Positions 5,325-63,281 of a stretch of 64,000 nt of DNA are shown in pieces; position 1 is the first letter of the stretch; the number at the start of each line of letters is the position of its first letter. This stretch comes from Eledone cirrhosa (lineage: Eukaryota). The stretch lies in contig OZ024755.1 of the NCBI GenBank assembly GCA_964016885.1, positions 26,970,001 to 27,034,000 on the forward strand. Direction: 5' to 3'. The position numbers were made by a program, and so were the translations under genes. The notes beneath the pieces were generated by a model that was not told where the DNA came from, searched no databases, and was given only the letters and a program-made list of their open reading frames with translations.

Positions 5325-7131
5325 TTAATACAATTGTATTCTGGTAGAGCTATTGTAGTTATTAAACTATTAATACAATTGTATTCTGGTAGAGCTATTG
5401 TAGTTATTAAACTATTAATACAATTGTATTCTGGTAGAGATATTGTAGTTATTAAACTATTAATACAATTGTATTCTGGTAGAGATATTGTAGTTATTAA
5501 ACTATTAATACAATTGTATTCTGGTAGAGCTATTGTAGTTATTAAACTATTAATACAATTGTATTCTGGTAGAGCTATTGTAGTTATTAAACTATTAATA
5601 CAATTGTATTCTGGTAGAGCTATTGTAGTTATTAAACTATTAATACAATTGTATTCTGGTAGAGCTATTGTAGTTATTAAACTATTAATACAATTGTATT
5701 CTGGTAGAGCTATTGTAGTTATTAAACTATTAATACAATTGTATTCTGGTAGAGCTATTGTAGTTATTAAACTATTAATACAATTGTATTCTGGTAGAGC
5801 TATTGTAGTTATTAAACTATTAATACAATTGTATTCTGGTAGAGCTATTGTAGTTATTAAACTATTAATACAATTGTATTCTGGTAGAGCTATTGTAGTT
5901 ATTAAACTATTAATACAATTGTATTCTGGTAGAGATATTGTAGTTATTAAACTATTAATACAATTGTATTCTGGTAGAGATATTGTAGTTATTAAACTAT
6001 TAATACAATTGTATTCTGGTAGAGCTATTGTAGTTATTAAACTATTAATACAATTGTATTCTGGTAGAGATATTGTAGTTATTAAACTATTAATACAATT
6101 GTATTCTGGTAGAGCTATTGTAGTTATTAAACTATTAATACAATTGTATTCTGGTAGAGCTATTGTAGTTATTAAACTATTAATACAATTGTATTCTGGT
6201 AGAGCTATTGTAGTTATTAAACTATTAATACAATTGTATTCTGGTAGAGCTATTGTAGTTATTAAACTATTAATACAATTGTATTCTGGTAGAGATATTG
6301 TAGTTATTAAACTATTAATACAATTGTATTCTGGTAGAGATATTGTAGTTATTAAACTATTAATACAATTGTATTCTGGTAGAGCTATTGTAGTTATTAA
6401 ACTATTAATACAATTGTATTCTGGTAGAGCTATTGTAGTTATTAAACTATTAATACAATTGTATTCTGGTAGAGATATTGTAGTTATTAAACTATTAATA
6501 CAATTGTATTCTGGTAGAGATATTGTAGTTATTAAACTATTAATACAATTGTATTCTGGTAGAGCTATTGTAGTTATTAAACTATTAATACAATTGTATT
6601 CTGGTAGAGCTATTGTAGTTATTAAACTATTAATACAATTGTATTCTGGTAGAGCTATTGTAGTTATTAAACTATTAATACAATTGTATTCTGGTAGAGC
6701 TATTGTAGTTATTAAACTATTAATACAATTGTATTCTGGTAGAGCTATTGTAGTTATTAAACTATTAATACAATTGTATTCTGGTAGAGCTATTGTAGTT
6801 ATTAAACTATTAATACAATTGTATTCTGGTAGAGCTATTGTAGTTATTAAACTATTAATACAATTGTATTCTGGTAGAGATATTGTAGTTATTAAACTAT
6901 TAATACAATTGTATTCTGGTAGAGCTATTGTAGTTATTAAACTATTAATACAATTGTATTCTGGTAGAGATATTGTAGTTATTAAACTATTAATACAATT
7001 GTATTCTGGTAGAGATATTGTAGTTATTAAACTATTAATACAATTGTATTCTGGTAGAGCTATTGTAGTTATTAAACTATTAATACAATTGTATTCTGGT
7101 AGAGATATTGTAGTTATTAAACTATTAATAC
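5325..7131. repeat. 45-bp minisatellite, about 40 copies
   Basis: Unit AATACAATTGTATTCTGGTAGAG(C/A)TATTGTAGTTATTAAACTATT; only one variable position seen. Confidence 0.98.
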
Positions 7132-17546: not shown

Positions 17547-17905
17547 GAAGTTATATTTAATTTGTTGGGATACAACAGGCAAAATATTTTTATGTAACTG
17601 ATATAAAGCACTCAACAAGTTATTGGAGTAAAAATACAATATATTAACAAATGGAAACTATATTTATAAAACCATATTTATTTCATTATACATATTTCAA
17701 GGACACCAAAGCAAATTATAGTGCGCTTTCATTATAATATAGATCAGTTTTATAAACAAATATTAAACAATGCGACCATTTCAGTTGGAAGCTCCCGGAT
17801 ATTTTGTCTGATGAAAGTGCACTATAATTTGCTTTGGTGTCCTTGAAATATGTATAATGAAATAAATATGGTTTTATAAATATAGTTTCCATTTGTTAAT
17901 ATTAT
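17524..17905. mobile_element. Fold-back Penelope-like/retrozyme element in (TA)n
   Basis: 17638-17732 is the reverse complement of 17811-17903. Homologous to 55296-55737. Confidence 0.75.
17800..17864 (+). ncRNA. Type I hammerhead ribozyme motif
   Basis: TATTTTGT-CTGATGA-AAG..CTT-GAAA-TATGTA-TA-ATGAAATA; 8-bp stem I with G-U wobbles. Confidence 0.7.
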
Positions 17906-19477: not shown

Positions 19478-19680
19478 AAAATGTATGACCCCGACGGCAG
19501 AGCTCAAGCTGTTTCGACGGCTATTTCTGGACATAAATAGTCCAGAAATAGCCGTCGAAACGGCTTGAGCTCTGCCGTCGGGGTCATACATTTTTCTATT
19601 ACCCACTCTACTACCTTAAGTATTGAGTACTCTGGTGCGTTATGGTCCATATAGTTCCTTACCACAACTCCTTCGTTTTA
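19476..19680. mobile_element. Fold-back element of the GAGTACTCTGGTG family in (TA)n
   Basis: Near-perfect hairpin 19477-19596 plus a one-sided extension. Relatives at 34820-35283, 42423-42551 and 63147-63281. Confidence 0.7.
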
Positions 19681-44069: not shown

Positions 44070-44455
44070 GTGGGAAAGTAAGAAATCGGAGAATAGACCG
44101 TTAAAACATGTTTATTTAAAACAGCACCTACGTACGTTTCGCCCAGTTGGGCTTCTCAAGGGCATAAATAATCAAAAGTGTTCCTTACATTGCTCGGAAA
44201 GAGTTTTTGGGGTTAAATTCACGTCAAGGTTCATTGCTCGCAAAAATACCTTGTTTTGATTTTGCAGCAGGTCCTGCTGCAAAATCAAAAATGAATCTTG
44301 ATGTGAATTTAACCCCAAAAACTCTTTCCGAGCAATGTAAGGAACACTTTTGATTATTTATGCCCTTGAGAAGCCCAACTGGGCGAAACGTACGTAGGTG
44401 CTGTTTTAAATAAACATGTTTTAATGGTCTATTCTCCGATTTCTTACTTTCCCAT
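44070..44455. mobile_element. Fold-back element with mirror variant hammerheads
   Basis: About 185-bp arms centred near 44271; motifs at 44124-44163 (-) and 44362-44401 (+). Confidence 0.8.
44362..44401 (+). ncRNA. Minimal hammerhead, C3U/G8A compensatory variant
   Basis: GCCC-TTGAGAA-GCCC AACT GGGC-GAAA-CGTACG-TA-GGTGC. Confidence 0.65.
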
Positions 44456-55004: not shown

Positions 55005-55240
55005 TTTAATTAGAAAGTGAACAACACAATATATAACTACTCCATTACCAAAGGTTTCAGGACCCTAGACAATATTGATATACACCTAGATCGTTCATCA
55101 GACAGAGAGGTTATCTGATGAACGATCTAGACATATATTAATATTGTCTAGTGTTCTCAAACGTTTGGTAATGGAGTAGTTATATATTGTGTTGTTTACT
55201 TTCCAATTAAATAGCTCTGTTCTATACATAGAGCACTCTT
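55005..55240. mobile_element. Fold-back element with degenerate mirror hammerheads
   Basis: Both arms start at CTGATGAACGATCTAG near the centre (about 55100-55115); CTAGACA/TGTCTAG stem II. Confidence 0.6.
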
Positions 55241-55339
55241 TTTTCCTTGCCTTTTCTTTGGAAATACTTAACACATATATATATATATATATATACAATG
55301 ATATTAAATAAATGGAAACTATATTTATAAAACCATATT

Positions 55340-55404
55340 TATTTTATTATATATATTTCAAGGGCAACCAAGACAACATTGGTACGCTTTCATCAGATAA
55401 AATA
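55340..55404 (-). ncRNA. Type I hammerhead ribozyme (mirror copy)
   Basis: Reverse complement of 55532-55596. Confidence 0.8.
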
Positions 55405-55531
55405 CAAAGTTTGTTTCATAAATAGAGACATACCCATGAAAATCATACCTTATCGTTGGAAATTCACTGGATATTCCAACCGATAAGGTATGATTTTCAT
55501 GGGTATGTCTCTATTTATAAAACAAACTTTG

Positions 55532-55596
55532 TATTTTATCTGATGAAAGCGTACCAATGTTGTCTTGGTTGCCCTTGAAATATATATAATAAAATA
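55532..55596 (+). ncRNA. Type I hammerhead ribozyme
   Basis: TATTTTAT-CTGATGA-AAG CGT ACCAA TGTTGTC TTGGT TGCC CTT-GAAA-TATATA-TA-ATAAAATA. Confidence 0.8.
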
Positions 55597-56151
55597 AATA
55601 TGGTTTTATAAATATAGTTTCCATTTATTTAATTTCATTGAATATTTACTCCAGTAAATAAATTGTTGAGTGCTCTAAATCAGTTATAAACATTTATATT
55701 TGTCGGACTTCCAACAAATTAAATACCACTTCTACTTATATATATATAATAGAGAGGGATCAGTCAATATATGAATATGATCAACACTCCGAAACAATCG
55801 TAAAACAATGAATGAAATATGAAAAATAGACTTTATCTTTGTTAAATGATATATTGAATTTTTGTTAAATTTTAATATGATATTGTAATGAACCATGTGT
55901 TTTTACATTCTATACAGATTATCTCCTGTTAAAGTTTGATATATTCTATTGTACGTTTATATCATTAGATATATATGTATATATGTCATTCGCTATTTTG
56001 TAATGATTAAATGGTCGGATTTATTCCTTGAATTTCTCTTTAAGCTTATTTTTGGGAGATAAGATGCATGTTTTAAATTATCTCAAAGATGATATCTATA
56101 ACTTTGAATGTAATATGTGTGTGGGTGTGTGTGTGTATATATATATATATA

Positions 56152-60837: not shown

Positions 60838-60919
60838 TACATAGCAAAATTGTAAAATTATAAAATTAAATTGTTTAGAACGCCAACTACAAATGAAATC
60901 ATTCTTTTCCTATTTTCAA

Positions 60920-60951
<32 letters not shown>

Positions 60952-60956
<5 letters not shown>

Positions 60957-61063
60957 AAATAAACATATCAAACATTGACAGGGGATAATTTGTAAAGAGT
61001 GTAAACTTTACACTCTTTGCAAATTATCCCCTGTCAATGTTTGATATGTTTATTTTATATATA
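60952..61063. repeat. Near-perfect hairpin in (TA)n
   Basis: AAAATAAACATATCAAACATTGACAGGGG..GTGTAAA-C-TTTACAC..CCCCTGTCAATGTTTGATATGTTTATTTT. Confidence 0.85.
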
Positions 61064-61297
61064 TAGATATATATAGATATATATATGTCAATTGACCTTT
61101 AATTTATATATATATATATATAATAATAGAATATAAAAGAAAAGCGAACACAGATATATAGATATATGTGTTCAAATCGTAAGGGACCCAATTCGCTAAG
61201 GTATAAAGGATACTAACTATAGGCAATTGGGTTCGCTTGTCTCAATTTAAGAAAAAATTAAGAAAATAAATACAAATCAGAATTGTGGTAACTACCA

Positions 61298-61375
61298 ATC
61301 ACCCAGACAACTTGTTGTTGTTTCGCAAATTTAATTGTGAATAGAAATACTAATCCAAGCTCATCAGTGGGTGAT
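61298..61375 (-). ncRNA. Canonical type I hammerhead ribozyme inside inverted-repeat element 61121-61449
   Basis: ATCACCCA-CTGATGA-GC..GC-GAAA-CAAC AACAA GTTG-TC-TGGGTGAT: 8-bp stem I, closed stem III, GUC cleavage triplet. Confidence 0.85.
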
Positions 61376-61528
61376 GAATCAGGTCCCTTACGATTTGAAC
61401 ACATATATCTATATATCTGTGTTCGCTTTTCTTTTATATTCTATTATAATATACGGCTCAGAAATATCTCTTTCTTAGAGCTATTTTGTTGTAAGAGACT
61501 ATTTTTAGTTCCTAACTCAATTTATACA

Positions 61529-61565
<37 letters not shown>

Positions 61566-61686
61566 GGAGGTGAGTTTTATTGTAGTACAATAAAGCAATG
61601 CAGATATCGGATAAGAAGCACTCTACAGTTTGTGGGACTGGAGTATGCATAATATAAGATCAAAAGATGGTTAAAGGAGTTCAATA

Positions 61687-61757
61687 TATTTTATTATGCG
61701 CATTTCAAAAACAAACATCATCAAACAATAATATTTGTGTTTTCATCAGATAAAACA
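61687..61757 (-). ncRNA. Type I hammerhead ribozyme (mirror copy)
   Basis: Reverse complement of 61886-61956. Confidence 0.8.
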
Positions 61758-61885
61758 GGAGAACATGATATGAAGGCTAAAAAAACACTTGTTGATAGTG
61801 CAGTTTTAAATCAACATATGTTGATATGTTGATTTAAAACTGCACTATCAACAAGTGTTTTTTTAGCCTTCATATCATGTTCTCC

Positions 61886-61956
61886 TGTTTTATCTGATGA
61901 AAACACAAATATTATTGTTTGATGATGTTTGTTTTTGAAATGCGCATAATAAAATA
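61886..61956 (+). ncRNA. Type I hammerhead ribozyme
   Basis: TGTTTTAT-CTGATGA-AAAC ACAAATATTATT GTTT GATGATGTTTGT TTTT-GAAA-TGCGCA-TA-ATAAAATA. Confidence 0.8.
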
Positions 61957-61986
61957 TATTGAACTCCTTTAACCATCTTTTGATCT

Positions 61987-62022
<36 letters not shown>

Positions 62023-63148: not shown

Positions 63149-63281
63149 GTAGGGTGTCGTAAAATACCAAGTGGACCATAACCCACCAGAGTACTCGATA
63201 CTGGAGTAGTAGAGTGGGTAATATGAAAAGATTCAGGACCCTGTTCGGATCTAGCTGTCGAAACGGTCCTGAATCTTTTCA
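63147..63281. mobile_element. GAGTACTCTGGTG-family fold-back with the 3' half of a hammerhead
   Basis: ATGAAAAGATTCAGGACC / GGTCCTGAATCTTTTCAT; CTAGCTGTC-GAAA-CG-GTC-CTGAATC. Confidence 0.55.

What the first reader, a model, noticed from the sequence alone, without database searches (positions are those of the whole stretch)
61121..61449. Fully canonical, monomer-competent hammerhead inside an inverted-repeat element
Minus strand 61375-61298 has a perfect 8-bp stem I, a CUGAUGA core, GAAA, a closed stem III (ACAAC/GUUGU with a 5-nt loop) and the optimal GUC triplet. Unlike the minimal palindromic motifs, it should fold without dimerising (inference), although stem II has only 2 clear base pairs. 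It lies between inverted arms of about 65 bp.
Basis: partly seen in the sequence, partly recalled or inferred. Interest (0 to 1): 0.75.

Follow-up and report, generated by a model that had tools for sequence, protein, structure and literature searches.

The report
Braced hammerhead in Penelope-type retrozyme
This stretch is one truncated copy of an abundant 496-base repeat, likely spread by Penelope-type jumping-gene enzymes, whose hammerhead (self-cutting RNA) motif normally comes with a long extra helix that likely braces it; this copy has lost half of that helix and is predicted to fold poorly.

Summary
It is not a solitary ribozyme in a terminal-inverted-repeat element. It is one copy of a ~496-nt non-coding family (at least 578 exact matches to one 21-mer; probably thousands of copies). 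Copies end at two fixed points 84 nt apart, run into (TA)n, and are often tail-out inverted: the Penelope-like footprint. The 78-bp arms come from such an inversion; the insertion spans 61117-61537.

It most likely braces the weak 2-bp stem II as a pseudoknot; an off-switch role is the rival. The inversion left this copy only 7 of these pairs, and its predicted fold traps the core, so 'monomer-competent' is doubtful here. Cleavage, expression and the partner enzyme are not shown. The scan noted the same two-ended layout in other families of this genome and shorter braces in other genomes.

The parts
61117..61537 (.). Whole insertion: tail-out inverted copy of the ~496-nt unit, between (TA)n tracts
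   Evidence: (L001: unit positions 147-412 on minus, 335-496 on plus), flanks
61117..61382 (-). Sense segment, unit positions 147-412; ends at the first fixed end (position 412)
61376..61537 (+). Inverted segment, unit positions 335-496; ends at the second fixed end (position 496)
61454..61537 (+). 84-nt 'tail' present at one end only
   Evidence: compare Frangieh 2024 and Craig 2021
61298..61375 (-). Type I hammerhead ribozyme motif
   Evidence: family model scores it 117 bits (the model was built from relatives, not from this copy)
61361..61367 (-). Core CUGAUGA
61327..61358 (-). 32-nt loop II; 61356-61342 is the strand that pairs with the 5' flank in intact units
61321..61324 (-). Core GAAA
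61305..61306 (-). Predicted cleavage site after GUC
   Evidence: inferred from the hammerhead consensus
61376..61382 (-). Inversion joint: 7-nt microhomology (6 of 7 identical to the native 5' flank); all that is left of the 5' strand of the brace helix
61117..61194 (+). Left inverted arm (78 nt)
61376..61453 (+). Right inverted arm (78 nt)
61104..61116 (.). (TA)n target tract, left
61538..61562 (.). (TA)n target tract, right

Best explanation
The stretch is a truncated, inverted copy of a high-copy 496-nt non-coding repeat with a type I hammerhead motif, likely copied into (TA)n by a Penelope-like reverse transcriptase/endonuclease supplied in trans, and its hammerhead is likely braced by a long pseudoknot helix that this copy has half lost. 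Shown: the motif, the family, two fixed outer ends 84 nt apart, (TA)n flanks, tail-out inversions, read-through beyond one unit, and the covarying 5'-flank/loop II helix (P0). Inferred: both strands of a (TA)n target are nicked and each 3' end primes reverse transcription at one of two internal start sites (unit positions 412 and 496), giving mirror arms plus an 84-nt tail; the template is a circular or multimeric RNA whose cut site is intact or re-ligated; P0 forms first during transcription, occupies the loop II strand that would otherwise trap the core, and holds stems I and II side by side so that a 2-bp stem II suffices. In the window copy the inversion joint replaced the 5' flank, so slow or no cleavage at low Mg2+ is predicted. 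Confidence is about 0.9 for the element type and about 0.6 for the brace role.
For: Family: 1856 first-look candidates, 40 scored, best 93-97% identical; 213 exact core-pattern matches against 0 for the reversed control; 578 exact 21-mer matches. Period 496. Of 124 distinct insertions 66 are tail-out inverted; 164 of 189 outer ends fall on the two sites; 44 of 47 inverted copies with both ends on those sites have one of each (p 1e-10). (TA)4 lies within 30 nt of 129 of those 164 ends, against 751 of 7000 random places. Frangieh 2024 maps the two ends of the tail to two RT start sites; Craig 2021 describes inverted 5' copies, one-sided tails and (TA)n targeting. 47 of 199 segments exceed 500 nt and 140 of 199 run through the cut site. 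P0: 85.5% of cells paired against 36-53% when slid, covariation 0.256 against 0.163 shuffled, 0 of 500; two-sided changes at 3 of 17 pairs; duplex median -14.0 kcal/mol in 32 A-type and -20.3 in 30 D-type motifs, -7.1 in this copy. P0 uses no core, stem I or stem III nucleotide, starts 4-5 nt after G10.1 in all subfamilies (read by eye) and is the same contact as the activating pseudoknot of Perreault 2011.
Against: No cleavage, RNA or partner protein is shown. None of the 227 loci fetched showed a reverse transcriptase frame continuous with the unit in those screened. Only 2 of 199 segments hold two complete hammerheads in tandem, so loci able to release a unit-length RNA are rare in my sample. 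Repeated parts within one insertion are closer than the median other copy (38 of 38 tandem, 60 of 63 inverted) but closer than the nearest other copy in only 6 of 38 and 11 of 63, so a single circular template is not proven. P0 support rests on about three independent events; the number of pairs with two-sided changes (3) does not exceed shuffles (498 of 500 as high); the register was chosen by eye on 36 hand-picked copies. In subfamily D the full helix (about 20 bp) leaves a 4-nt return linker and abolishes stem I in the predicted fold, which fits a block better than a brace. A weak alternative partner for the 5' flank downstream of stem I reaches 80% pairing in its best register. The end at position 412 lies in a TA-like stretch of the unit, which inflates its (TA)n count.
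Confidence: 0.6

Rival explanations
1. Same element, but P0 is an off-switch: the long hairpin blocks the hammerhead in the circular or uncut RNA so that it survives as a template. The window copy, having lost half of P0, would then be freer to cut than intact units.
For: In D and E copies the predicted fold is the full P0 hairpin with stem I probability 0.00 (L112, L136, L105, L098). Two of the three covarying pairs are distal. 140 of 199 segments run through an intact cut site. Cervera and de la Pena 2020 say metazoan circles need some block and found none by self-pairing. In the anole element uncut RNA is the main template.
Against: P0 touches no catalytic or stem I/III nucleotide; ViennaRNA cannot score pseudoknots, so it must choose between P0 and stem I; the position matches activating pseudoknots; the return linker is A-rich in all subfamilies, as for minor-groove linkers (analogy).
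Confidence: 0.25
2. One reading: this copy is an efficient stand-alone monomeric ribozyme as it stands.
Against: Hammerhead fold 5.5 kcal/mol above the ensemble, with both halves of the core paired into loop II; three of the seven residual pairs are G-U or weak, and in a full transcript that strand is locked in the 78-bp arm.
Confidence: 0.2
3. A miniature inverted-repeat DNA transposon, or an assembly fold-back, that happens to hold a hammerhead-like string.
For: Long near-perfect arms, TA flanks, and many other palindromes in the window.
Against: Arm length and joint vary among copies, 56 of 124 insertions have no inversion, the two ends differ by a fixed 84 nt; the arms differ at 3 of 78 positions; compensatory changes in stems I and III; opposite-strand joints also appear in contigs of three public runs of one sample.
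Confidence: 0.03

Closest known systems
Metazoan non-LTR retrozymes (Cervera and de la Pena 2020, PMC7229834, parts 2-4 of 6 read; Li, Clavereau and Pollet 2026, 10.64898/2026.07.22.740005, parts 1-2 of 5 read)
   Same: Non-coding, low-GC unit of a few hundred nt with one type I hammerhead per unit, thousands of copies, tandem read-through, proposed Penelope-like mobilisation; the mussel family also lacks the usual loop 1/loop 2 contact nucleotides.
   Different: Here copies are dispersed fragments of up to 1.7 units with tail-out inversions rather than long head-to-tail arrays (2 of 199 segments hold two full ribozymes); loop II is 32 nt with a long helix to the 5' flank; no RNA evidence.
Penelope-like elements, endonuclease-positive, (TA)n-targeting clades such as Hydra and Naiad (Craig 2021, PMC8557442, passages, section 11 and supplement searches; Frangieh 2024, PMC11167929, parts 1-2 of 4)
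   Same: Two fixed ends defining a one-sided tail, 5' truncation, partial tandems, inverted 5' copy, microsatellite target, hammerhead upstream of the start sites.
   Different: No RT/GIY-YIG frame in the unit; tail is 84 nt, not 30-40; the hammerhead has a long closed helix III rather than the minimal palindromic form of most metazoan elements (Cervera and de la Pena 2014, PMC4209133, passages); parent clade not identified.
Pseudoknot-braced hammerheads (Perreault 2011, PMC3088659, passages)
   Same: Watson-Crick contact between the strand next to stem I and the strand leaving stem II, found in types I-III, with stem II as short as 1-2 bp.
   Different: The examples seen in the passages are 4-6 bp; P0 here is 14-20 bp; activity untested.
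PK hammerhead, PDB 8YDC (Zhan 2024, PMC11300833, passages)
   Same: Very short stem II with a pseudoknot from loop II and an A-rich linker.
   Different: There the partner is the loop of a separate hairpin (helix IV); here it is the strand directly 5' of stem I.

Membership tests
Type I hammerhead ribozyme | Core CUGANGA, GAAA and UH triplet in type I order | tested here: met
   core intact in 29 of 32 A-type and 20 of 30 D-type motifs
Type I hammerhead ribozyme | Three helices supported by compensatory changes | tested here: met
   stem I 1 clear pair, stem III 3 pairs change on both sides; stem II is 4 bp in C/D, 2 bp in A/B, 1-2 bp in E
Type I hammerhead ribozyme | Active fold is the favoured fold in this copy | tested here: inconclusive
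   predicted 5.5 kcal/mol above the ensemble; the model lacks pseudoknots, tertiary contacts and Mg2+
Type I hammerhead ribozyme | Self-cleavage after C17 | not testable with these tools
   only a weak genomic hint: excess of breaks at the cut site, p 0.02-0.17 by how cases are counted
Canonical metazoan hammerhead (Cervera and de la Pena 2014) | Helix II of 4 bp with a small loop contacting helix I; short palindromic helix III | tested here: not met
   2-bp helix II, 32-nt loop, 5-bp helix III; no Rfam hit; definition
Pseudoknot-braced hammerhead (Perreault 2011) | Base pairing between the stem I flank and the strand leaving stem II | tested here: met
   met for the family; only 7 pairs left in this copy
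Pseudoknot-braced hammerhead (Perreault 2011) | The pairing raises the cleavage rate | not testable with these tools
   needs mutants in vitro
PK hammerhead (8YDC type) | Partner strand is the loop of a separate helix IV joined to helix I by a linker | tested here: not met
   partner strand abuts stem I directly
Metazoan non-LTR retrozyme | Non-coding repeat unit with one type I hammerhead, GC under 50% | tested here: met
   496-nt unit; no clean frame
Metazoan non-LTR retrozyme | Two or more consecutive units with complete ribozymes (Li 2026 'active' criterion) | tested here: inconclusive
   2 of 199 segments; not met by the window copy; a master array elsewhere is not excluded
Metazoan non-LTR retrozyme | Expressed as unit-length linear and circular RNA | not testable with these tools
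   no RNA holder listed
Penelope-like element (non-autonomous) | Two fixed ends forming a one-sided tail | tested here: met
   164 of 189 outer ends; 44 of 47 mixed pairs
Penelope-like element (non-autonomous) | 5' truncation, partial tandems, inverted 5' copy, microsatellite target | tested here: met
Penelope-like element (autonomous) | ORF with RT and GIY-YIG endonuclease | tested here: not met
   none in the unit; such ORFs lie near some copies (L014, L027, L061, L075) but belong to other elements
MITE / terminal-inverted-repeat DNA transposon | Fixed terminal inverted repeats shared by all copies | tested here: not met
   arm length and joint vary; 56 of 124 insertions have no inversion

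The most novel reading that the evidence does not exclude
The 5'-flank/loop II helix is a zipper switch: its proximal half braces the hammerhead so that multimeric transcripts cut, and its full 14-20-bp form locks the ribozyme off in the circle, which a Penelope-type enzyme then copies from two start sites into both ends of a (TA)n break. That would be a self-pairing answer to how animal retrozyme circles avoid cutting themselves, in a hammerhead form that Rfam does not see.
Probability: 0.22. Interest if true: 0.7.

Novelty: new variant of a known kind. Interest (0 to 1): 0.43.

Why it matters
Type I hammerheads in animal repeats and their link to Penelope-like elements are known, so the motif alone is ordinary. 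Two things lift it. First, five subfamilies give a natural mutant series for a 14-20-bp helix that trades off against stem II length, and the window copy is a natural half-deletion of it; a few T7 transcripts decide brace versus switch, and the switch outcome bears on a question left open by Cervera and de la Pena 2020. Second, the strict one-of-each pairing of two start sites is genomic support, outside the in vitro anole system, for two-ended priming by Penelope-type enzymes on a non-coding passenger RNA. It also shows that long-loop hammerheads escape Rfam, so counts in animal genomes are too low.

Tried and rejected
Rfam: no hammerhead model hit. Expression: no RNA holder listed; three runs of one sample, kind not on record, hold the family as contigs and say nothing on expression. 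Autonomous partner: not found among flanks of 20 ten-kb regions and the 3-kb loci screened, by a short-loop pattern or by a translated query; six short motifs searched in the Craig 2021 supplement gave no family match. Vestigial ORF from the AUG in the core, as in the anole element: one D copy is open for 82 codons, but the majority of 30 D copies has 2 stops in that frame and another frame has 1; rejected as inconclusive. A-to-G editing skew: none significant in 81, 51 and 70 segments (ratios 1.29, 0.81, 1.20; p 0.17-0.36). Pile-up of 5' ends at the cut site: 1 of 199 segments starts within 5 nt of it; targeted patterns gave 6 starts plus 3 deletions of 10 hits at the site, against 1 of 3, 4 of 5 and 4-7 of 18 at three control sites, p 0.02-0.17: a hint only. 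Stem I extension as partner of the 5' flank: my register was off by one column; best slid register 80% paired, covariation 0.09. RNAalifold does not predict P0 because it crosses stem I. Pfam and PDB gave no passing hit for the neighbouring Penelope-like ORFs, so their clade rests on motifs read by eye.

Full report
Observation. A strict descriptor finds this one hit in the window and none in 300 Markov-resampled windows. Rfam misses it at both thresholds. The arms are 78 nt at 96%, with a 66-nt perfect core.

Host. The window lies in a 3.0-Gb AT-rich animal genome. It is probably an octopus; this rests on a recalled SINE-like repeat and on earlier notes of the scan, and I did not test it.

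Family. The 181 nt between the arms have 1856 first-look candidates; of 40 scored, the best are 93-97% identical. A core pattern has 213 exact matches against 0 for its reversed control, and the 21-mer after the cut site has 578. A diverged copy as query gives 3355 candidates. Several thousand copies is my estimate, not a count. The unit is 496 nt in the window's subfamily. Loop II and stem III sequences separate at least five subfamilies, 72-97% identical to the reference unit.

Architecture. I mapped the loci held at that point (L001-L140) on one real unit and removed duplicates: 124 insertions, 199 segments. All were selected for holding the hammerhead region, 20 of them by hand. 66 are tail-out inverted, 56 single-stranded, 2 other. 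Of 189 outer 3' ends, 80 fall at unit position 400-420 and 84 at 478-6; 25 fall elsewhere. Among 47 inverted copies with both ends on these sites, 44 have one of each (p 1e-10); 19 further inverted copies have at least one other end. (TA)4 follows 129 of the 164 fixed ends within 30 nt, against 10.7% at random places. The window copy is of this kind: positions 147-412 on the minus strand and 335-496 on the plus strand, joined at a 7-nt microhomology, spanning 61117-61537. The overlap 335-412 makes the arms; 413-496 is a one-sided tail. Craig 2021 lists inverted 5' copies, one-sided tails and (TA)n targeting for Penelope-like elements, and Frangieh 2024 shows in vitro that both strands are cut and extended and that the tail lies between two internal RT start sites. 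I infer the same process here, with the enzyme supplied in trans. Penelope-like ORFs exist in this genome (L075 480-2982 and 6890-9253, L014, L027, L061), but none is continuous with the unit.

Template. 47 of 199 segments exceed 500 nt (longest 849) and 140 cross the cut site, so the template was mostly uncut or re-ligated and longer than, or circular at, one unit. Only 2 segments hold two full ribozymes. Repeated parts of one insertion are closer than the median other copy in 38 of 38 tandem and 60 of 63 inverted cases, but closer than the nearest other copy in only 6 and 11. Circle and multimer are therefore not told apart. Breaks exactly at the cut site were 6 starts and 3 deletions among 10 pattern hits, against 1 of 3, 4 of 5 and 4-7 of 18 at three control sites, classified by eye; p is 0.02-0.17. 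This is a hint that some RNA was cut there, no more.

The missed helix. In intact units the 14-20 nt directly 5' of stem I are complementary to loop II (P0). On 36 hand-picked copies from all subfamilies, P0 is 85.5% paired against 36-53% when slid, with covariation 0.256 against 0.163 in shuffles, 0 of 500 as high. Three of 17 pairs change on both sides, and these track subfamily splits, so they are about three events; that number of pairs does not beat the shuffles (498 of 500), and I chose the register by eye. Stems I and III show one and three such pairs on the same alignment. Duplex energies have medians of -14.0 kcal/mol (32 A-type motifs) and -20.3 (30 D-type); shuffled flanks matched four tested copies in 5, 8, 0 and 0 of 2000 trials. 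Stem II is 4 bp in C and D and 1-2 bp in A, B and E.

What P0 does. It spares all catalytic, stem I and stem III nucleotides and corresponds to the pseudoknot that Perreault 2011 found in all three hammerhead types and showed to be needed for fast cleavage of a ribozyme with a one-pair stem II. It also covers the loop II strand that, in the predicted folds of A copies, pairs with the core. I give the brace about 0.6. Against it, the full helix in D leaves a 4-nt linker and the predicted folds of D and E copies lose stem I altogether, although the program cannot form pseudoknots. An off state, or a switch between both, stays open.

This copy. In four contexts from 78 to 419 nt the hammerhead fold lies 5.5-5.6 kcal/mol above the ensemble, stem II probability 0.00. 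Two intact A copies score 5.3-5.4 in the same pseudoknot-free model, so the difference lies in how much P0 can add. Dimer-free cleavage is plausible for the family and doubtful for this copy.

Literature. Searches. The listing for 'hammerhead ribozyme' with 'octopus' shows no paper on such a family; the main text of a 2026 Octopus vulgaris repeat annotation has no occurrence of hammerhead, ribozyme or retrozyme (PMC13282606, passages); Cervera and de la Pena 2014 has none of 'pseudoknot'; a 2019 review was seen in passages (PMC6765202). Supplements of the 2026 preprint are closed, and those of Perreault 2011 and Cervera 2014 and 2020 were not read; they may show similar long-loop motifs. My reading was recorded before those look-ups; they are not independent support.

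Verdict. A real hammerhead motif in an ordinary, damaged copy of a non-autonomous Penelope-type/retrozyme family. The family's long covarying helix is the part worth testing. Interest 0.43; new variant of a known kind.

Noticed in passing
window 61644-61999: 176-bp-arm palindrome next to (TA)n; 98% identical to the end of an element with a GIY-YIG-like, CxCx5C-bearing ORF in L014: a fold-back end of another Penelope-like family.
   Followed up: partly
window 19478-19594 and 63150-63280; L075 6840-9253: Fold-back fragments of the terminal repeat of a 788-codon Penelope-like ORF with Hydra-type motifs read by eye; near-intact, no Pfam or PDB hit.
   Followed up: partly
window 44071-44454; L075 about 6815-6905: Hammerhead-like motifs whose first core strand reads UUGAGAA, i.e. 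U3-A8 in place of C3-G8; the L075 one has a long stem II and closed stem III.
   Followed up: no
window 55303-55633, 17641-17902, 60919-61093, 55020-55196: Further (TA)n-flanked palindromes; the first two match 16 fetched loci each, the last two only the window's own locus or one other. 55107-55040 holds a weak hammerhead-like string.
   Followed up: no
   Followed up: no
L142 and L148, about 1500: Another small hammerhead family with a 5-bp stem II and long extended stem I, beside (TA)n.
   Followed up: no
L195, L198, L201, L206, L209: Copies with 8-37-nt deletions that abut the cut site, as expected from cutting, trimming and re-ligation; two are also explained by a 3-nt direct repeat.
   Followed up: partly
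window 61188-61189: Two adjacent differences between the arms make the sense arm match an internal imperfect inverted repeat, possibly a template-switch correction.
   Followed up: no
alignment A1 columns 65-67: An invariant UUC in loop II can pair with the core GAA in all 36 copies: a second possible inhibitory contact.
   Followed up: no
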